DNA from: the human T2T-CHM13v2.0 reference genome, Homo sapiens
Reading direction: 5' to 3' (one strand)
Assembly (NCBI RefSeq): GCF_009914755.1
Contig: NC_060934.1
Length of the DNA: 64,000 nucleotides
The notes beneath the pieces were generated by a model, which ran no database searches, was not told the DNA's origin, and saw only the letters and a list, made by a program, of their open reading frames with translations. Positions 1-24,351 of this stretch are shown here, in pieces. The position numbers were made by a program, and so were the translations under genes. Each line of letters starts with the position of its first letter. Position 1 is the stretch's first letter.

Positions 1-445
1 TCCACGAGACTGGCTCTACCACCCTGACCAGAGAACGCCCTCTCCCTCAGCCCTAGTTTGCTCATCTGGAAACAGAAGCACCACCCCCTGACCTGCTTTT
101 CTCCAGGGTGTGCTGGAGACCCAGTGAGGGATTCACCAGAAGGACAAGTAGGAGGTCAGGAAAGGTGACAGCTCTGCCTGGAGGAGCTGGAGAGTCTAAC
201 TGCCTCTGAGGATGCCAAAGCTGCCCCCGGGGCCCGAAGCCTGGCTCGGCTCCTTGCTCTTAGCTCAGCTCCTGGCTCTTGGCCGGGCCTCCCTGAGGGC
301 TACTCCTTGGCTTCACATTTTCCTGCTGCTGGGCAGAGTGGGGTGGGACCCTGTGCTCCCTGCTGCCCCTGACTCTGGCTGACCCAGGGCCTACAGCATG
401 GCCAGGAATAAGAGAGTGTACGGAGGAAGGGTCCAAATTACTCAC

Positions 446-591
446 AAGAGAGAGTTTTTGGCCGCACTCACAATACAGGAGACCCTATCGGCATCCACAT
501 AGTCGTAGGTGAACTCTTCTGGGTCTGTCTTGGAGCCTGACTCAGAGAGCAGGAGACCCAGCCAGTGGCCCATTTCCTCGGAAGACTTGGC
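446..591 (-). CDS. AFAP1L2: AFAP1L2 exon 12 (AKSSEEMGHWLGLLL...YDYVDADRVSCIVSAAKNSL), 146 nt
   Basis: ttccag|GCC acceptor, TT|gtgagt donor, phase 0-2; end of PH2 and YDYV tyrosine motif. Confidence 0.96.
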
Positions 592-1417
592 CTGGAACGA
601 GGCCAAGAGAGACATAAGCAGGGCCAGGCAGTGCTGCCTGGTGCCAGCCCCTCCCCACCAGGCCATGACCGTACCCCTACCCCTGAGCCTGCCCACGAAA
701 GCCTCTGTAACAGCCCGGGGCTGTGCTTCTCCTGTTCACCAGCCTATCCCACCCCCCAGTGGCCCCAGATAATATTTCCTGTCGTCAGTGACATCTTGAT
801 GCCACCTCAATAATGCTGTGGACTTTTGTCCCAAGGGCCATATGAGATGTATATACACTGTGTTTCTAGGAGGTGAAAACTTATCACCAGGTGGTCACTA
901 TTAAAAACTGTTAGTGACCACCTGTTAATTAATAGTTTTTAAAATGATTAAAAAATTGTATGTCTTTTAAGTTGACACTTGTATTTTATGAACAATGCAT
1001 GTCATTCCCCCAATCCCATATACAACAAGACTTCCTGGATCCCCAAGAAATAACAACATTCAAATTTATTTTGTTCATGGCTTCAGTAAAGTCGGGACAT
1101 CTTTTAAATACCTTACACTAGCTCAGCTGCTAAATCATCATCAAAATCCCAGTGAATTTGGTATTTTTTTTTCCAGGGGACAATGCATTCTAATCAAATG
1201 CATCCATTGGGTACCTCAATTAAAATGTCCACACTGTTTCTTACCTTTATAATGAGAAAAAACTGCCCATTTAATCAAAGCTATAGGTTTATTTTGATGA
1301 GGAAAATCAGCCCCCTTTGGTATAACCCATAGCTCCATCACGTTTGCTGCTACATTCTCTTCATCAAAGAGGCCGTGATGAGCAGAATTTGACATTTAGT
1401 TGGTTTCCTTTTCCCAG

Positions 1418-1713
<296 letters not shown>

Positions 1714-2825
1714 CCCACTTAGTTTCAACTGGATTCTAAATACAGCTTTTCATGGGCCTCCCCTAGTCCAGGCTGCGTCTCTGCCCTGGACAGCTGCGAC
1801 AGCTTCCTAGCAGGTCCCTTCTTGCCCCCTCCGATCCACTCCCACCCCAGTAGCTGGAGGAAGCATCTCAAAACCCCGATCTGAGCTTGCCGCCCTCCCC
1901 TGAAAGCCATCAGGGCTCCGTTGCTCCTAGGATCAAGCCCTGTCCCTCCCGCTCCAGCCTGTCACCCAGACCCCAGTACAAGTCTATAGCACCCTCCCCA
2001 CTTCTTTCCAGCCATTGTAGCCCAGCGATTGGCTGGGTAATTTGCTGAATAACATCACACTCCCAAACTAGGATGTAAGTGCCACAAGGACGGAGTCCAT
2101 ATTGCTCTTGTCCACCATATTCCTGTGCTGAGAAGATGTCTGTTGATGGGGAACCTCTGAATGGATGAATATAAGCTACAAGCTGGACCCTGGGAAGCAA
2201 TTGCGATGTGGGTCTTTCAGCCACCAGAGGGCAGGATTGGAGCAAAGTTTGGATGAGGACCTCCACATCAAAGACTAAGTGAACGGACATTCACGGGCAA
2301 GTGTGTGCTTCCATGCGTGGAAGGGACTCGGTCTCCGCCTGCCGCAGCTTGCAAAGCGTTATGTCACTTCTTATTTTTGTAAACGTAACATCACATCAAA
2401 GGGAGGATGGGGAGCGAGAGGAATGTAATTGTATCACAAAGCGAATTTTTTCCCCCAGATAAGCTCTAACAGTGTGGTTTTTACGTACTGGGCCTAGAGG
2501 CTCTCCCAGCTGGTGATACCCAAACAAAACAACACCCACTTTGAATCCCCAGCAGCTTTTCCAGTAGCTCAGAGAACTAAAAATACTCCTTCTGCCCTAA
2601 GTGCAGGAAGTAGCGCATGGTTCCACTCTTATAACGCAACTACTCTGAGGTCAGAAAAGGAATGGAAATTTTTAAAAATGCAAACAATCTCAGGCAAACG
2701 AAGTAAAAATAACACGCGGGGACATTGATTCTCCCTTAGTAGCATTACAGTCCTGGAGACTGGCAGCAAACAGCCACCACCGCCACACCCTGGCTGGCCC
2801 TGCTCCCCCTGCAGGCCGGCGGTAC

Positions 2826-3037
2826 CTCAAGCTTGGCCAGCTCCTCGCCCTTGTGGAGGATGCGGAAGGAGTAGAGGTGGTCGGGGCTGGGGTCTGGGAC
2901 CACCTCGCAGCCCACCAGGCTGAGGGGTTGCTGGGCCACCTTGCTCCGGTTCCGGTCCTGGTAGAAGTGCAGGTGATTGTCCCTGACAGAGCACCAGCGA
3001 GACTTCCACTGGCTGTTCACCAGCACGTTCAGGTAAC
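2826..3037 (-). CDS. AFAP1L2: AFAP1L2 exon 11 (SYLNVLVNSQWKSRWCSV...EELAKLE), 212 nt, PH2
   Basis: cctcctgcag|GT acceptor, GAG|gtaccg donor, phase 1-0; PH-domain motif YLNVLVNSQWKSRWC. Confidence 0.96.
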
Positions 3038-4547
3038 CTGCAGGAGGAAGTGCAGATGCAGGAGGGGACAGGGCTGCAGGAGGGGACGCAGATGCAGGAG
3101 GGGGCGGGGCTTCGGGAGGGCACACAGATGCAGGAGGGGGCGGGGCTGCGGGAGGGGAAGCGGATGCGGATGCAAGAGGGGACTGGGCTCCAGGAGGGGA
3201 CGCAGATGCAGGAGGGGACCGGGCTGCAGGAGGGGACGCAGATGCAGGAGGGGACTGGGCTGCAGGAGGGGACTGGGCTGCAGGAGGGGACGCAGATGAA
3301 GTAGGGGGCGGGGCTGCGGGAGGGCATGCAGATAAAGGAGGGGGCGGGGCTGCGGGAGGAGACGTGGATGTGGGAGGGCACGCGGATGCAGGAGGGGATG
3401 CGGACGCAGGAGGGGACGGAGCTGCAGGAGGGGTCGCGGATGCAGGAGGGGACTGGGCTGCAGGAGGGAGCGGGGCTGCAGGAGAGAGCGGGGCTGCAGG
3501 AGGGGACGGCGCTGCAGAAGGAGATGCAGATGCAGATGCAGGAGGGGACGCAGGTGCAGGAGGGGACGCAGATGCAGGAGGGGACGGGGCTGCAGGAGGA
3601 GATGCAGGAGGGGGTGCAGGTACAGGAGGGGTTGGGGCTGCAGGAGGGGACACAGATGCAGGAGGGGGCGCAGATGCAGGAGGCGACGGGGCTGCAGAAG
3701 GAGATGCAGATGCAGGAGGGGATGCAGATGCAGGAGGAGATGCAGATGCAGGAGGGGATGCAGGTGCAGGAGGGGACGGGGCTGCAGGAGGGAGCGGGGC
3801 TGGAGGGGACGGGGCTACAGGAGGAGATGCAGATGCAGGAGGGGGTGCACGTACAGGACTGGTCGGGGCTGCAGGAGGGGACGCAGATGCAGGAGGCGTC
3901 GGGGCTGCAGGAGGGGAGGCAGATCCAGGAGGGGACGCGGGTGCAGGAGGGGACGCGGGTGCAGGAGGGGGCGCAGGGGCAGGAGGGGACGCGGGTGCAG
4001 GAGGGGACACAGGTGCAGGAGGGGACGGGGCTGCAGGAGGAGATGCAGATGCAGGGGGGGTGCAGGTACAGGAGGGGTCGGGGCTGCAGGAGGGGACGCA
4101 GATGCAGGAGGGGACGCAGATGCAGGAGGGGACACAGATGCAGAAGGGGGCGCAGATGCAGGAGGCGACGGGGCTGCAGAAGGAGATGCAGATGCAGGAG
4201 GGGATGCAGATGCAGGAGGGGATGCAGGTGCAGGAGGGGACGGGGCTGCAGGAGGGGATGGGGCTGCAGGAGGGAGCGGGGCTGCAGGAGGGGATGGGGC
4301 TACAGGAGGAGATGCAGATGCAGGAGGGGGTGCACGTACAGGACTGGTCGGGGCTGCAGGAGGGGACGCAGATGCAGGAGGCGTCGGGGCTGCAGGAGGG
4401 GACGCAGATCCAGGAGGGGACGCGGGGGCAGGAGGGGACGCGGGGGCAGGAGGGGACGCGGGGGCAGGAGGGGACGCGGGGGCAGGAGGGGACGCGGGGG
4501 CAGGAGGGGACGCGGGGGCAGGAGGGGATGCGGGGGCAGGAGGGCAT
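3038..4547. repeat. GC-rich minisatellite (VNTR), ~18-bp unit gcaggaggggacgcagat / gcaggaggggacggggct, roughly 80 units, in intron 10
   Basis: Direct reading of tandem units; explains the long low-complexity ORFs on both strands. Confidence 0.97.
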
Positions 4548-5971
4548 GGGTGTCTAGGTGTGTCCTAGGCTGGCACTGCCTCTAGGCTTCCTTAGAGTCC
4601 CCCAGATTCTCAGCTTCAGAACCCATCGGACACCTTCCCTGTCCTAAGGGATTGGAAGCTGCCCTGAGCTTTGGCTGGCTGAACCAGGCAATAGCGTGAA
4701 AATGCACAGCTACCTTCCTGCCTGGCCCAGTGGGGATCATGCATATCGCCAAGCCACATTAACACAAAGTGGAAGAATTAGAGACCAGGACTGAGATGAC
4801 ACACACACCCGTCACAATCCTCTGGACCACAGAGAACTTTGGATCATGAGAGGTGGGATCTCAGATCATTAAGCACCCCCAGTCCTGGGAAGGAGAGCAG
4901 CTGTATTCTCTCTCAGCCCTCCCCTAGCCGCAGGAAGCATACTTCACTGCTGAGTAGACATCCAGCAATCACCCAGCCACATCTCTTAAACAGTGACTCA
5001 CAGGGACTGAGCTCCCAGGCCAAACATCATGCCCCCTGAGGCCACTGCCTGGCACCCTGGCTGGAGAAGCCGGAGAATGCAAAGACACACCTCCTAGCCC
5101 ACCCCCACCACCCTGCCAGCCTCAAAACACAAGAAAACTCAACTGGGACTCAGGAAGGGAACCCAGAGATGGGACAATAATGGCCTTCAGGCCCCTGGAA
5201 GGATGACCCCCAATGTGGGACCCACTTGGGGATCAAGATACCAGGCCCACCCCAAGATATTTCCCAAGAAAGGCTTGTCGCTCCTCCTAACCTCAGTTTC
5301 CCTGAGTATGAGCTAAGGCTGTAGAGATGACCTCTAAGAGCCTACCTGCACCCATACCCTCTGCACCAGTACAGGGTTCTCATTGTCCCCTTCATAGTCT
5401 CGGTTGTTCCCATTTCAGAGTCATTGCTCCTGTCCACAAGCACCATTCCAGCCCATTCCACTCCTACATGCCCCTCAAGGCTCAGGTCCACAAAGCTATC
5501 TCTGACCACAGGGCAAGAAAAGTTCTCTCTGTCCCTGAGTCCTGATAGCTACGAAGATGGCACAGTGCGTGCTTATGGGTATAAAATCATCACCTCCCTC
5601 AGGCAGGCTGTGAGCTCTCAGTACTGTGCCTGCCATCCTTCTGCTTGGTCCCCTTTTAGCAAGGTCCCTGCTATATACCCTGTAAATATAGATCAAATGA
5701 ACATCATTTTTAAAAGAATACTAGGAGGACACCAATCAGTTACCCTTCACTTCCACAAAGGCCCCAACATTGCAGCAAGAGAGAGTTGGATCAGGCATAA
5801 AGAACTGCCTGCAGTAACAACAGACGGGAACCTGAGGGCTGCAGGCTCTCCATTCCTAGAGATGTTTACGGAAGACCTAAAACCCCCTGCCTTCGCTGTC
5901 TGAGCTCGCCTTCCTGCAGGTTCCAGCCCAGGAAATGAGCCTGTGGTCCCGGAGGTAGCTACAATTCTTAC

Positions 5972-6076
5972 TGGATGTCTCGAGGGACCTCTCCACAGGC
6001 TCCAGTGAGGTGGATTTCTTCCTGCCCAGATTCATTAGGTTGCTCAGTTTGAGGCCAGCAGAACATTTCTTCTTGA
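5972..6076 (-). CDS. AFAP1L2: AFAP1L2 exon 10 (VKKKCSAGLKLSNLMNLGRKKSTSLEPVERSLETS), 105 nt
   Basis: tgacag|TC acceptor, A|gtaag donor, phase 1-1. Confidence 0.95.
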
Positions 6077-6599
6077 CTGTCAAGATGAGACAGAAAGCAA
6101 TTCGTATTGCACGTGGTCCACCCACGTGCCCATGAGAGATGGAAAAAATAGCAAACCCATTTCCACTCCATCCACCCATCCCTCCCCGCTACATATGCGC
6201 GCACATATGCACGCATACACACACACACATCTCCTCAAACCAGGACCTGCAGGCCACAGTCAGGTGTCTTTAAAGTCACACACTCAAGAGGGGTACACAG
6301 ACTTCTTATAGAATATGCAACCACTTGAGAATCTTTACACACTGTACTGGCTCAAAGAGATTTGAAATAGGGTTAGCAAACAAGAAGAGATGGAAGAACA
6401 TTCTATCCCCAGCATTTCATGAAGCTTAACTTCAATTTGGCCGAGTCTCCCTTTTTCCTGGATCTAACAGCAGTATTTCCGAGTGGTTTATTAATAGGGG
6501 GCCATGTTAGAATCCGCTGCTAAAACCCATCAGGGTTGAGCCTGACAGCCCAGCCTCACAGCCTGGGACACCATTCCCCTCCCGACCACATGATGTTAC

Positions 6600-6684
6600 C
6601 GTCTTTGGTTTCTGGGACCTCAGGGTGGCCATCCACGGAGCTCCCATACTCTGAAGCCGACAGGTACTTCTCAGCTATATCTGG
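6600..6684 (-). CDS. AFAP1L2: AFAP1L2 exon 9 (PDIAEKYLSASEYGSSVDGHPEVPETKD), 85 nt
   Basis: ccatag|CCA acceptor, G|gtaac donor, phase 0-1. Confidence 0.93.
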
Positions 6685-8021
6685 CTATGGACAAAAGCGA
6701 CATGAATGGGGATCACTGGCTGGGAACAGTTACCTTGGAGACCACAATTGAAGGGAAAATAATAGATGGCTCTTGGTTGTATGCCAGAGGTCAGCTGAGC
6801 AAATCCCTGCCGGCCACCTAAACGGCAGAATCCAGGTCACTGGTAGGACATTGGCCCAGCTTCCAAATGGCTGCTCAACCTGATGTGACAGTGACCCTGT
6901 AGCCAGTGGGCAGGGCAAGCAGGCTGCTCAGGGGTGGCATTAGAGTCTGCATCCCCTATGATGTTAACTGTCAAGCTAGAAACCACTCATACTGAGAGTG
7001 TGAAGAAGTCTTTTGAGAGCTGACTGTTCTAGCAATGTGAGCTGGTTCGTCTGCACAGGAGCAGACCATGTGATTTGAGTCCTGGCCGGAGCATTCTGCT
7101 GCCAGGCTGGTGCCCAAGTTAAATGAGCCTCTCTGAGCCTCACTCTGCATGTGTCACATAGGGATGACATCCCAGTCTGCTCACAGGGGTGTTGGGGACT
7201 CAAGATGATCCCTAGAAAAGTGTAGCTGCTGCTACTGTTAGAACATGAAACCCTCAGAATATTCCAATCAAGCTGCGTTTAGAGAGTCACCGACTCCATA
7301 CCTCTGGAAAACAAGCTGACAGTCTCCCAAGCAACAGGACCGGCCTTAGGCAGGGTCCAGGGCCAGCAGTCCCTGGCCAAGGAAGCACTGCATGCCGAGT
7401 CTTTGAAGAAAACCCAACTTCTTTCCAACTTTTGTTTTCTTGTCAGTGGCCAAGGAATAAATGAGATAATGAAAAATGGCCCCTCCTGAGTCACTCTGGA
7501 ATCTGGAAGGACTGTGGGCTATTTCTCCATGTGGGATGACCTGTGCCTTCTGGAGAGTAAGTGGCCTCCTTTCTGCTCGAGCCCTCTGTGTGCCTCTTGT
7601 TTTCCTCCCTGCTGGGGTGGGGACCCCAAGAGGAGCCACAGTGATGTTCTGGCTGTTCTATGTGTGCCCACGCTTCAGGACACCTACCTGCAGGTACTCA
7701 GGGACAGGAAATGTGACCCCACAGGTGATGATCCTCCTTTTGGCCAGAACCTAATTCAACTTTTTCAGCCTTGACCTTTAAGCCTAAAGCTCCCCCGAAA
7801 GCACCATGCAAATGAGGACTACAGCCCTTTGGTTGCAATCAGCCTTGAGATAGCGCCCCAAGCCCAGAGGCGCTACTGAGGAATAAGGGGAAAGGAAGTG
7901 CCTCATAAAATCAATCTCCCTACTTAAGAATGCAGGCCAAAGTGACTGTTGTTCCAATAAAGCTTCCCCCTGTCTCCCCACTCGCCCACCCCCGGCACCT
8001 ACAAGCAAGAAAATATTTTAG

Positions 8022-8395
<374 letters not shown>

Positions 8396-8521
8396 TCAAG
8401 CATTGTATGTTTCTTATTAATTGGACTGAAATATAAAAACGAAGCTCCCAATTTTGCACTTTTAATTTTTACAGAGAAAACATGGAAGGGGACTCTCCCT
8501 CCAGGCAGGGCAGAGGCTTAC

Positions 8522-8611
8522 TTTCTGGCAGTTAAAGCGCTGGGCATCCGGGGTGTACTGGTTTCCTTCAGATGCTCCTTCGGAAGGCAGGCCGCTCACT
8601 TCCTGGATGAC
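8522..8611 (-). CDS. AFAP1L2: AFAP1L2 exon 8 (VIQEVSGLPSEGASEGNQYTPDAQRFNCQK), 90 nt
   Basis: cctcag|GTC acceptor, AAA|gtaag donor, phase 0-0. Confidence 0.95.
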
Positions 8612-10402
8612 CTGAGGCAAGAGGGAAGCCGTCAGCAGAGGCTGAGGTCCTCTGGCCAGCACTCACAGCCAGGCTGAAGCCAGGGCCCCTGCAGGTCAGG
8701 GGAGAGTGGGTGGAGGTGAGAGAGAAGATGAATTTCCAAGGAAGAGGACCCACCCGACCCCAGCCCCAAGGCCTGCATGTGGCCTCAGACCCAGCTGGGC
8801 AGGCTGCAGTGGGGAGGGCTCGTTGTTTAGCTCCTTTCCGCAGGTCCCACACGTTCATGGGCATGCGAGGGGGGGCCTTGGCAGCAAAGGCCAAAGATGA
8901 CCAGAGCCACCAGCCCAGGGCTCCGCGAGCCCCTTTCCTGCCACCATTCCAGGCAGGGCTACTGTTCTGTTGCAGGCGTGATCAACAACTGCCTTGCTAG
9001 ACAGTCCTCTGGCTTTTCAGAGGTCATGCAACTCTCTGTGGAGTCTCCACGCTGCCTGAGGAGCAGGCCTGCAAACTCCCTTGTTCCAACCACCCTCTGG
9101 CTCTCCCGACTCGCCTGCCGCCACCCACCCACCCGCCCGCCCGCCTCTGGGAAGGGGCCTCTTCACTGGCTTCATTGACCAGTGGAGGAAGAGGGTCTCT
9201 CTGTAAAGGCTGGACACAGAAAGGCTGTGCCTTCTGAAAGCGTTCTTGTCTTTGAAACCCCAAGCAGAGGCTATGGGGCAGGGGGTCTCAGGAAGAGGGC
9301 GTGAGACTCTGGGAAGGGAGGCTGGGTCCGGAAAAGGATAGGTGGGTTTGGGCAGTCAGAGGAACAGAGCCTGGGCTGGGGGCAGATGCAGAAAGTCAGC
9401 AGTGGCTCTGACTATGAAAGCATTGCCTCAGTCTGAGCCAGGGGCACTCCCTTCTTGCCGGGGGAACTCCCAGGGTGACCAGAAACACACTACCCACCTG
9501 GAAGCCCTTTGGAAACGCAGAATTAGTTAGAGTGATTTCATAGATCCCCCTCTTTCAGTCTATGCCTAGAGCAGTTTGTGGAAATGGGTTTCAAATCAGA
9601 AGAGCCCAAGAACTCCAGTTCGGGACTGTGGTCCACACTGAATATGCAACCCAGTGTCATAGGAAGAGCACAGGCACTAGGGTTGGCACCTGAGTGACAT
9701 TGAGCCTGAGCCTCAGCCACTGCATCTGTAAGCTGGGTCAATACCTTTGCCACGAGCCAGCTGTGAGCGCTTGTATGTCAAGCACCCAGCACAGGGCAGG
9801 CACATGGATTACCATCCCTATTAGCTTGGGCCAAATACACGGATGGCCCTGCCCAGGGAAAGTGCCACTAAGCCAGGAGTTCAGGAGTGGGGTGGGGGCA
9901 GGGTCATGCTTCCTGGGAAAAGCCCTGCCTTGTGCCTTCCTTTACTGGGACCGTCGTCCCATAGTCAGCATCTCCCGTTTACTGTCATATACCTGTCTCA
10001 CCCTGGGCATGGGTGCGGATATGCAGAATTGGGACACAGAGGTCCAAGGAAGGTAGATGGGCTTCACAAAGCCAATGCAGGTAGGTGGAGAGCCCATCAG
10101 ACAGGTGGACCAGCCCCCACTGCCAAAGCGCAAGAGTGGGCGGCTTCTGAGAGCAGGCATTTCCAGCCAAGTCCACCTCTGCACTTGTCTGAGCTGGGGG
10201 GAAGGGTCTCTCTGTGGAGGCTGGACACAGAAAGTCTGTGCCTGCTGAAAGCGTTCTTGTCTTTGAAACCACCAGCAGAGGCTATGGGGCCAGGGGCCTC
10301 AGGAAGAGGGCGTGAGAGTTTGGGGAGGGAGGCTAGGGGCCAGGGAGAAGATCGGTGGATTTGAGCAGTCAGAGGAACAGAGCGGGGAACTGGGGGCAAG
10401 AG

Positions 10403-22723: not shown

Positions 22724-24351
22724 TGAATCATGAAACTCCATGGGAATATGCATAATGAGTTCACAACAGAAGTGGCAGAGCTCGAAATGTATTCCCTCCC
22801 ACTCTTGATTTTGAGAAGTCCTTGTGCTGCGCCCTCCGCGTGAGAGGGAAGGCCTGGGCCTTCAAGGAGGCTCCACGTGAAAGCACAGGCAGGCTGTGAG
22901 GTGGGGGAGGTTGTAGGGGGAGATGATGGAAGCAGCAGCCAATGGAAGGACGCTGCAGTGCCCTGAGCTCAGGTGGACCCCTGTGCTTTGGGGGAGAGGG
23001 TAATGCTAGGAATCCAGAAACTCCTGCCATGAAAAATGGATTTGGGGGACCCAGGATGGAGGTAGCTCCCCTACTCCTGGCCCAGGAGACAGTGGGAGGA
23101 CAGGCAGCCTGTGCTTAGCCCCTGTGGGACAGTCCTCAGCCTGGGCTGCAAGAGTATCCCTTCCAGCTTCCCCAGGGTGAGGATACCAGGGTCCCCAGAG
23201 CCCAGTCCTGTGTGGTTTGGACTCTACAGTCTGTTTATATAGACCCTGGAGTTCATGTAACTTGATTTCAATCCGGGCTTCAGGACCTCATAGATTTAAC
23301 CTTGGGTATGTGACAGCCTCTCTGAGCCTTGCTTTCCTTCTTTATAAAATAATAATACTAGGGTTGTTTTGAAAATTCAATGAGACAAAACGTGATAGTG
23401 TTTCCACAGGGCCTGGCCCATATTAAATACAAGGAGGCCATTGTTATCACTGTCTGGGGCCCCTCCACAGTCCCAGGGTCTGCAGGTTGCGCAGTGAGGG
23501 CAGTTAATGTGACAGGCAGTTAATGTGTTGTCCTGAAAGCTGAGACGAAGAGGATCGACCCTGTCGGGGCATCGCAGAGGGTTGGCTGAGGCCAGGCCAC
23601 AGCCTGGGTCCAGCACCAGATCTGGTCCTGTACCAACAGAGCTGATATGAGGCACAGGGCAGGCTCAGAACAGCCTTCAGCCCTCCTCTGGCATGTGGCA
23701 CCCCCTACAAAGAAAGGAATCAAAGAATTTGGTCACTTCATAAGCAAACCCGACACTGTACTGGGCTGACAGACGCACTGCTGAAGGGAGCCAGGTTGCA
23801 CACCTCTGCCCAGGCTCCTGCCTGGCAGCCAGGCCCTAGCAGACAATGAGCGTGCCATTGGTAACTTCTAGTGTATGGTCCTCCCTCTTTGCCAGCCCCA
23901 GCCTGGTACAAGATCTTTGCTCTCTCAGCCTTTCCTGGTCCCCCTGGTCAGCCAGCAGCCTGAGAAAAGGCTGAGACAGTGACAGACTTGCCTGTGGTCC
24001 ACTAACAACAGGCTCCCTAGGGTCCACAGGGAAAGGGTCCTCTCGCCTCTGTGGCAGTAAGGTCTCCCCAGTGGGTCCCAGGGCTCATCAGCCTGATCTG
24101 GCTGGGCCTCCAGCTCCAGCCTCCAAGAAACTCCGTTCCCGTCAGGTGGGTCCCATCTGGAGAAAAGCTCTGGGCACCCGAGATCTGGCCCAAGGTCAGG
24201 ATTCTCTAGAGTCGAACAGGACAAAGGGAGGAGTGAACCCTTCTGCAGGAGCTCCCCATGGGTCATCATCACCACAGGGTCTGTCCCTGGGGGCCTCCTG
24301 TCCTGTCTAGGGTGGAGCCAGGCAGTGTTTTGTGAGTGTCTCCTAAGCTTC

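What the first reader, a model, noticed from the sequence alone, without database searches (positions are those of the whole stretch)
3038..4547. A minisatellite made out of the exon-11 splice acceptor: an array of in-frame decoy 3' splice sites
Seen: the VNTR begins at the acceptor itself; on the sense strand its unit is a pyrimidine tract ending cctcctgcag/cctcctgcat, the same as the true acceptor cttcctcctgcag|GT. About two dozen units end in YAG. The nearest decoy AG (3074) is only 36 nt upstream, and decoys checked at 3074, 3224 and 4031 are 36, 186 and 993 nt away, all multiples of 3, with no stop (open frame 2745..4547). Beyond a 1-nt slip at ~4055 decoys are out of frame (4084 is 1046 nt away). 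No yUnAy branch consensus is visible in the last ~40 nt; the nearest I found is ~3297. Inference: use of upstream AGs would insert a length-variable Pro/Ala/Ser (PxxP-rich) linker just before PH2, while distal AGs would trigger NMD, so VNTR allele could tune XB130 splicing, dose and SH3-ligand content.
Basis: partly seen in the sequence, partly recalled or inferred. Interest (0 to 1): 0.75.

Follow-up and report, generated by a model that had tools for sequence, protein, structure and literature searches.

The report
Minisatellite that repeats a splice acceptor
The last 1.5 kb of one AFAP1L2 intron is a C-rich 18-base tandem repeat whose final unit is the real splice acceptor, so the intron holds about 29 look-alike acceptors, but nothing seen here shows that any look-alike is used.

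Summary
TRF finds an 18-bp array of 82.6 copies at 3057-4544. My unit walk places 84 units from 3038 to 4551, and the last one is the true acceptor of exon 2826-3037. The array holds 37 further AGs. Of these, 29 are unit-end YAGs behind a pyrimidine tract; 21 are in frame and 8 are out of frame beyond a 1-nt deletion near 4055.

The "open frame" is a composition effect, because all six frames are nearly stop-free. Every decoy has C or T after the AG, never a purine. None of the 41 RefSeq transcripts in the hub table starts an exon inside the array.

The two human paralogs share the intron position but have no array, so the acceptor is older than the repeat.

Most likely this is a gene-specific GC-rich minisatellite that grew out of the acceptor's pyrimidine tract. 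The true site probably wins by exon definition and by having its branch site downstream of the last decoy.

It is the acceptor-side counterpart of the known donor-reiterating minisatellites (F7, IFI6, CBS). Decoy use and allele effects could not be tested here. I found no paper describing the array.

The parts
3038..4551 (-). 18-bp-period C-rich minisatellite of about 84 units filling the 3' half of AFAP1L2 intron 10 (intron 3038-5971)
   Evidence: TRF (3057-4544, 82.6 copies) and the unit walk. Composition: sense strand 54.5% C, GC 70%, 76 CpG at o/e 0.58.
3038..3055 (-). Last repeat unit, which is the true polypyrimidine tract and acceptor AG (the G is at 3038) of exon 2826-3037
   Evidence: plus the exon coordinates in the hub table.
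2826..3037 (-). Exon 11 (212 nt, start of PH2). Its first 40 nt are 55% purine. Its donor is GAG|gtaccg.
   Evidence: plus the hub table.
2770..2825 (-). Start of intron 11 with three G-runs (GGGGG, GGG, GGG) within about 40 nt of the donor. They are candidate intronic enhancers, which is an inference.
   Evidence: Sequence read.
3074..3091 (-). Nearest decoy acceptor unit (AG|C, +36 nt, in frame). It matches the true site at 19 of 26 positions over -23..+3.
3278..3333 (-). The two decoys (3278 at +240 nt, 3314 at +276 nt) that each lie 19 nt downstream of the only two yUnAy branch-like motifs (A at 3297 and 3333)
4049..4066 (-). Unit 57, which carries the 1-nt deletion that puts every more distal decoy out of frame
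   Evidence: (gap against the duplicated copy).
4408..4533 (-). Distal block of 7 near-identical units ending CCTGCCC or CCTGGAT. It has no AG, and its + strand reads as the recalled classical minisatellite core GGGCAGGANG.
4031..4443 (-). Distal copy of an internal higher-order duplication of about 485 bp
   Evidence: lag 485, 79-100% identity in the first five 100-nt windows; 94% mean column identity against 3566-3958.
3566..3958 (-). Proximal copy of the same higher-order duplication
3076..3125 (.). RefSeq 'silencer' feature inside units 3-5. It contains one of the four GGGGCGGGG boxes (3101).
   Evidence: The hub table (not verifiable here), and for the GC box.

Best explanation
This is a GC-rich, strand-asymmetric minisatellite specific to AFAP1L2. 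It expanded from the pyrimidine tract and AG of a pre-existing acceptor, so it reiterates that acceptor's core about 29 times upstream of the real one. It is an intronic passenger repeat, not coding sequence.

The real acceptor probably wins for four reasons, all inferred:
1. It is the only copy followed by exon: a purine at +1, purine-rich exon sequence, and a donor 212 nt downstream flanked by G-runs. That favours exon definition.
2. Its candidate branch A's (-20, -14) lie downstream of the last decoy AG (-38). Once that branch site is engaged, the first AG reached is the true one, and all decoys lie behind the branch.
3. The decoys share the same weak, non-consensus branch context and a more C-rich tract.
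4. Using decoys beyond about +100 nt would give exons too long for efficient definition.

I expect the decoys to be silent or minor. The array's more probable consequences are a longer intron, a C-rich RNA platform, and spare acceptors if the true AG is lost.
For: Shown here:
- The array and its register reach the exon boundary exactly.
- The decoy core matches the true site at up to 21 of 26 positions over -23..+3. The +1 base is C in 31 and T in 6 of 37 decoys, against G at the true site.
- The true tract has 13 of 16 pyrimidines. The ten other acceptors of the selected transcript in the window have 11-16 of 16.
- The nearest upstream AG is at -38, and A's lie only at -20 and -14 inside that zone.
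- Purine content downstream is 55% at the true site against 25% after decoy 3074.
- All six frames are nearly open, so there is no coding signal.
- The paralog exons on chr4:7.77 Mb and chr5:149.85 Mb keep the same intron position and phase, with ordinary acceptors and no tandem array in the 1.5 kb upstream. The acceptor therefore predates the array.
- The array is single-copy in the genome.
- Internal turnover is visible as a 485-bp duplication at 94% identity and a near-perfect 7-unit block.
- The hub table shows that none of 41 RefSeq transcripts uses a decoy.

From print:
- Donor-side counterparts exist. Pseudo-sites are silent in F7, LMNB2 and PDGFA, and partly used in IFI6 and CBS (PMC1557585: abstract and passages of the introduction and discussion).
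Against: - No RNA data were available, so silence of the decoys rests only on the RefSeq table. RefSeq would not model a minor isoform.
- By local sequence, several decoys are about as good as the true site. Examples are 4031 at 21 of 26 positions and 3512 and 3692 with 7 T's in the tract.
- Two decoys, 3278 and 3314, have a better branch consensus than the true site.
- In two of the five donor-side precedents, proximal pseudo-sites are used.
- I had no calibrated splice-site model such as MaxEntScan or SpliceAI. Strength is judged only from identity, pyrimidine counts and recalled consensus preferences.
- An independent 12-bp CTCCTGCAGCCC array exists on chr4. The motif may therefore be a generic minisatellite unit rather than acceptor-derived.
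Confidence: 0.6

Rival explanations
1. Proximal decoy AGs are used at appreciable levels and insert in-frame Pro/Ala/Ser linkers of 12, 36, 62 or more residues before PH2. Distal ones cause nonsense-mediated decay. VNTR alleles then tune isoform ratio and dose.
For: 21 unit-end decoys are in frame and stop-free, and 8 distal ones hit a stop 89-191 codons after the junction. Decoy cores are near-identical to the true site. Proximal pseudo-sites are used in IFI6 and CBS on the donor side (PMC1557585 introduction). A preprint reports that CAG repeats create acceptor sites (PMC10614865, seen only as a search listing and abstract start).
Against: No RefSeq transcript (0 of 41, hub table) starts an exon in the array. 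Frame openness is compositional, since all six frames are nearly open. No decoy has a purine at +1. The freshest-looking block has no AG. No paper in the library pairs AFAP1L2 with VNTR. Its single sQTL co-mention is a cattle selection study. It is absent from the searchable supplements of a tandem-repeat splicing catalogue (file 1 was not searched).
Confidence: 0.12
2. The array acts mainly at the DNA or chromatin level. It would be a CpG-rich block that forms G-quadruplexes or i-motifs and binds GC-box or MAZ-type factors, working as a silencer or as a polymerase pause site just before exon 11. Copy number would then affect expression rather than acceptor choice.
For: GC is 70%, with 76 CpG at o/e 0.58. 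There are 51 overlapping G4 pattern starts (loops of 7 or fewer) on the + strand. GGGGCGGGG occurs 4 times and GGAGGGG 56 times. The hub lists a RefSeq silencer at 3076-3125 inside the array. Intronic VNTRs are reported to affect splicing or expression in ABCA7 (PMC5954066) and TERT (PMC11830802); both were seen only as search listings and abstract starts.
Against: Motif counts in a repeat are not evidence of binding. I could not see the data behind the silencer feature. No eQTL record for this array turned up in the supplements that could be searched.
Confidence: 0.15
3. The transcribed array is a C-rich RNA platform for poly(C)-binding proteins (PCBP1/2, hnRNP K). These make the C-rich exon-11 acceptor dependent on them, or coat and mask the decoys.
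For: The sense strand is 54.5% C, with UCCCCUCCU-type tracts in nearly every unit. Binding of alphaCP to a cytosine-rich subset of polypyrimidine tracts drives a cassette-exon splicing pathway (PMC4797308, title and abstract start only).
Against: This rests on motif resemblance alone. The supplement of PMC4797308 could not be searched. No CLIP data are available here.
Confidence: 0.1

Closest known systems
Donor-reiterating human minisatellites: F7 IVS7 (37 bp), IFI6/6-16 intron 2, CBS IVS13 (31 bp), LMNB2 (100 bp), PDGFA intron 4 (81 bp). As described in PMC1557585 (abstract, introduction and discussion passages).
   Same: In both, a tandem array begins at an authentic splice site and reiterates its consensus many times inside the intron. 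Only the exon-proximal copy is normally used (F7, LMNB2, PDGFA), or the nearest few copies as well (IFI6, CBS). In both, the array offers a natural test of how one site is picked among identical ones.
   Different: Those arrays are on the 5' splice-site side, and in F7 the unit spans the exon-intron boundary. This array is on the 3' side and is purely intronic. It stops exactly at the AG, and the three bases after each decoy AG (CCC and similar) differ from the exon (GTT). Polymorphism is shown for those arrays and is untested here.
Amphioxus 'mirages': minisatellite-like duplications of intron-exon boundaries (PMC3087553, passages)
   Same: They include acceptor-side cases (3' end of the intron plus the start of the exon). 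Many units keep AG/GT signals, and regular splicing is reported as undisturbed.
   Different: Their units are 10-160 bp, include exon sequence, and number only a few copies (3-6 in BflGb6). They are in a different phylum. Here there are 84 short units with no exon part.
Classical GC-rich 'core' hypervariable minisatellites (Jeffreys type; the core motif is recalled and comes from no call)
   Same: The unit is 18 bp, GC is 70%, and purines and pyrimidines are strongly segregated between the strands. The recalled core GGGCAGGANG is exact at 8 sites on the + strand of the array, against 4 in the other 62.5 kb on both strands. The array also has internal higher-order duplication.
   Different: Hypervariability was not tested. 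The locus is interstitial on chr10 at 115.2 Mb, and the PRDM9 13-mer is absent (0 hits).
Intronic VNTRs tied to splicing: ABCA7 intron 18 (PMC5954066) and TERT intron 6 VNTR6-1 (PMC11830802). Both seen as search listings and abstract starts only.
   Same: Each is a long GC-rich intronic VNTR close to a regulated exon.
   Different: In those cases, allele length was shown to be associated with splicing. Nothing of the kind is shown here, and those arrays are not built from the splice site itself as far as I could see.

Membership tests
Minisatellite / VNTR | Head-to-tail tandem array with a unit of roughly 10-100 bp | tested here: met
   Period 18, 82.6 copies, score 1181. 84 units in register.
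Minisatellite / VNTR | Copy number variable between individuals | not testable with these tools
   Only one haploid assembly is held. The only indirect signs of recent turnover are a near-perfect 7-unit block and a 485-bp internal duplication at 94% identity.
Minisatellite / VNTR | GC-rich with strand asymmetry and a core-like motif | tested here: met
   GC 70%, with C 54.5% against G 15.9% on the sense strand. The recalled core motif is exact 8 times.
Splice-junction-reiterating minisatellite (F7 / IFI6 / CBS type, 'mirage') | The terminal unit of the array contains the authentic splice site | tested here: met
   Unit 1 (3038-3055) ends in the annotated acceptor AG (hub exon table).
Splice-junction-reiterating minisatellite (F7 / IFI6 / CBS type, 'mirage') | The unit spans the exon-intron boundary, so exon sequence is repeated too | tested here: not met
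   After the true AG comes GTT. After the decoys comes CCC, CTC, CGC or TCC. No exon sequence is reiterated.
Splice-junction-reiterating minisatellite (F7 / IFI6 / CBS type, 'mirage') | Pseudo-sites carry the same splice consensus as the real site | tested here: met
   29 unit-end YAGs sit behind tracts of 12-14 pyrimidines out of 16. Identity to the true site over -23..+3 is 12-21 of 26.
Splice-junction-reiterating minisatellite (F7 / IFI6 / CBS type, 'mirage') | Pseudo-sites shown to be silent or used in transcripts | not testable with these tools
   No RNA data are held. The only evidence is that the hub table of 41 RefSeq transcripts lists no exon starting in the array.
Coding VNTR (protein repeat) | One frame is kept open against a background of closed frames, and the sequence is included in mature mRNA | tested here: not met
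   All six frames are nearly open. The array is annotated as intron in the selected transcript (hub table).
Tandem alternative acceptors (NAGNAG type) | Competing AGs 3-12 nt apart downstream of one branch site | tested here: not met
   The nearest upstream AG is 36 nt away.

The most novel reading that the evidence does not exclude
This is the first human acceptor-side counterpart of the F7/IFI6/CBS donor minisatellites. The nearest in-frame decoys (+36, +108, +186 nt) would be used at a measurable level that depends on tissue or allele. That would give XB130 isoforms with 12-62 extra Pro/Ala/Ser residues in front of PH2. The array would also act as a bank of spare acceptors that turns loss of the true AG into an in-frame insertion rather than exon skipping.
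Probability: 0.12. Interest if true: 0.65.

Novelty: new member of a known kind. Interest (0 to 1): 0.4.

Why it matters
If the decoys are silent, this locus is a ready-made natural test of 3' splice-site choice. It offers 29 near-identical tract-plus-AG copies in one intron, of which only the exon-proximal one is annotated as used. The F7 IVS7 array served the same purpose for 5' sites.

If the proximal decoys are used, a length-variable repeat would write a variable proline-rich linker into a signalling adaptor.

In either case, short-read pipelines cannot genotype the array. The one AFAP1L2 repeat I found in a VNTR catalogue is a different 15-bp UTR repeat. Any effect of this array on AFAP1L2 would therefore have gone unseen.

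Tried and rejected
- Coding reading: rejected. All six frames are nearly open across the array.
- Long-range RNA pairing between the C-rich units and the G-rich start of intron 11: the minimum-energy fold of 2760-3110 does pair them, but it is no more stable than shuffles (z = -0.34; 36 of 100 shuffles fold at least as well). A seed-10 inverted-repeat scan of 1-9000 found no arm inside the array. I set the idea aside.
- Recursive splicing: there is no AGGT anywhere in the array. The same script's donor-like scan listed no site.
- PRDM9 13-mer hotspot motif (recalled): 0 hits on either strand.
- Known RNA families: 0 Rfam hits at gathering score in 2000-6500.
- Strong polarity of unit divergence along the array: not found. 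Identity at lags 18 and 36 is 0.67-0.84 in all eight 180-nt bins. Only the distal 7-unit block stands out.
- Dispersed family: the array is single-copy. The other genome hits are weak look-alikes at 67-77% identity.
- Literature:
  - AFAP1L2 + VNTR gave 0 papers.
  - AFAP1L2 + 'tandem repeat' gave 12 papers, none about this repeat judging by title or abstract start.
  - AFAP1L2 + minisatellite gave 1 paper, a thyroid cancer review.
  - AFAP1L2 + sQTL gave 1 paper, a cattle study.
- Supplements:
  - No AFAP1L2 in PMC10078293 (file 1 not searched), PMC10234305 (file 1 not searched) or PMC11701250.
  - PMC8024321 lists only a different 15-bp UTR repeat.
  - The PMC4797308 supplement was not searchable.
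- Tools that closed:
  - Paper reading closed, so the supplements of PMC13263140 and the main texts of the ABCA7, TERT, CAG-acceptor and alphaCP papers were not read.

Full report
**What is there.** Read on the sense (-) strand, the last 1.5 kb of AFAP1L2 intron 10 (3038-5971) is one tandem array.
- TRF reports 3057-4544, period 18, 82.6 copies, 75% matches, score 1181.
- Walking in 18-nt steps from the exon boundary gives 84 units from 3038 to 4551. They stay in register apart from a few 3-nt shifts and one 1-nt shift.
- Unit 1 (3038-3055) is the annotated acceptor of exon 2826-3037, so the array runs right up to the intron's last base.
- The sense strand is 54.5% C, 21.9% T, 15.9% G and 7.7% A. 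GC is 70%, with 76 CpG at o/e 0.58.
- The strongest self-similarity is at lags 36 and 18 (0.76 each). The working unit is therefore an alternating pair: one unit ends ...CCTCCTGCAG and the next ends ...CCTCCTGCAT.

- There are 38 AGs in 3038-4547, including the true one.
- Positions 3074, 3224, 4031 and 4084 lie 36, 186, 993 and 1046 nt upstream, exactly as stated.
- Of the 37 decoys, 35 are YAG. Of those, 29 are unit-end YAGs behind a tract with 12-14 pyrimidines in -20..-5, and 6 are secondary CCCAG/ACCAG sites. The other 2 are RAG.
- 21 of the 29 (all at or below 4031) are in frame. The 8 at or above 4084 are shifted by a 1-nt deletion in unit 57 (4049-4066), which shows as a gap against the array's own duplicated copy.
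- Simulated transcripts show no stop for any in-register decoy up to 4031. Decoys from 4084 outward reach a stop 89-191 codons after the junction.
- Only two yUnAy motifs exist in the array, with the A at 3297 and 3333.
- One correction: the normal junction codon is A+GT = Ser. Decoy 3074 would replace that Ser with TLSPPASALPPAG.

**What is not more than chance.**
- The long open frame (2748-4553, 602 codons) carries no information. The other two sense frames have one stop each, and the three + strand frames are open for 506, 426 and 410 codons.
- In-frame spacing follows simply from a period of 18.

**How the decoys differ from the real site.**
- Over -23..+3 the unit-end decoys match the true site at 12-21 of 26 positions.
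- The systematic differences are downstream of the AG. The true site is AG|GTT. All 37 decoys have C (31) or T (6) at +1.
- The 40 nt after the true AG are 55% purine, against 25% after decoy 3074.
- The true tract (13 of 16 pyrimidines, 6 T) falls in the range of the ten other acceptors of the selected transcript in the window (11-16 of 16). Its nearest upstream AG, at -38, is also typical.
- Inside that AG-free zone the only A's are at -20 and -14. Both sit in a non-consensus UGCAY context, which most decoys share.
- The two decoys with a consensus branch motif 19 nt upstream are 3278 and 3314. Using them would lengthen the exon to 452 and 488 nt.
- The exon-11 donor is weak (GAG|gtaccg) and is followed by three G-runs.

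**Origin.**
- The PH2-exon homologs on chr4:7.77 Mb and chr5:149.85 Mb (by recall, AFAP1 and AFAP1L1) have the same intron position and phase (ag|GCTAYCTGAACG). They have ordinary acceptors, one of them ending ctcctccag.
- TRF finds no array in the 1.5 kb held upstream of either.
- The acceptor is therefore ancestral, and the array is a later event specific to AFAP1L2.
- The array is single-copy in the genome.
- It shows internal turnover. A segment of about 485 bp is duplicated at 94% identity (4031-4443 against 3566-3958). Seven near-identical units form the distal end (4408-4533).
- That distal block has no AG. On the + strand it reads as the recalled classical minisatellite core, which is exact at 8 sites in the array against 4 in the other 62.5 kb.
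- An independent 12-bp CTCCTGCAGCCC array of about 78 copies on chr4:62.96 Mb shows that this motif class can expand elsewhere. 'Made out of the acceptor' is therefore likely but not proven.

**Is it used?**
- I could not look at RNA.
- The hub's table of 41 RefSeq transcripts lists no exon starting in 3038-4547.
- I found nothing in print about this array in four AFAP1L2 searches of the library (VNTR, 'tandem repeat', minisatellite, sQTL).
- Three searchable catalogue supplements lack the gene. A fourth lists only a different UTR repeat.
- Paper reading closed, so other supplements remain unseen.

**Comparison with known cases.**
- A class of human minisatellites that reiterate a splice donor is in print: F7, IFI6, CBS, LMNB2 and PDGFA. 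Pseudo-sites are silent in three and partly used in two. In F7 the exon-proximal site wins by position (PMC1557585).
- Amphioxus 'mirages' include acceptor-side duplications that leave splicing undisturbed (PMC3087553).
- The AFAP1L2 array fits this class on the acceptor side. The difference is that no exon sequence is repeated.

**Verdict.**
- The structural reading is supported.
- The functional reading is untested, and the annotation, the +1 base and the AG-free young block weigh mildly against it.
- My best explanation (confidence 0.6) is a passenger minisatellite seeded at the acceptor's tract, with the true site chosen by exon definition and branch-site geometry.
- The rivals are decoy use (0.12), a DNA-level silencer or G4 role (0.15, with a RefSeq silencer at 3076-3125 in the hub table), and a poly(C)-binding-protein platform (0.10). 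These are not mutually exclusive.

Noticed in passing
L007 991-1964 (G000:C4, about 62,962,482-62,963,455): An independent 12-bp minisatellite, CTCCTGCAGCCC, of about 78 copies at 87% matches. It carries the same CCTCCTGCAG core and a CAG in every unit. I did not determine whether it also abuts an exon.
   Followed up: partly
window 2770-2831: The exon-11 donor is weak (GAG|gtaccg, no G at +5). Three G-runs (GGGGG, GGG, GGG) follow within about 40 nt, which is the usual look of G-run intronic enhancers. One of them (CUGCAGGGGGAG) is nearly complementary to the repeat unit, but the fold is no better than shuffles.
   Followed up: partly
window 24041-24205: The two alternative exons 24047-24191 and 24047-24205 share a donor that reads GAG|gcgaga, that is GC rather than GT. 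The upstream end of 24191 has no AG, as expected for a first exon.
   Followed up: no
window 3076-3125: The hub lists a RefSeq 'silencer' wholly inside repeat units 3-5. It includes a GGGGCGGGG box at 3101, and three more such boxes lie at 3137, 3305 and 3341. I could not see the source assay.
   Followed up: no
window 3038-4551: The 1.5-kb array does not appear in the hub's list of the longest masked repeats, although it would be the longest entry. It seems to be unmasked in NCBI's file.
   Followed up: no
L010 and L011 (G000:C4:7,772,331-7,772,540 and C5:149,852,563-149,852,772): The paralog PH2 exons (49% and 46% identical in protein) keep the phase-1 intron at the same codon, and both begin GCTAYCTGAACG.
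   Followed up: yes
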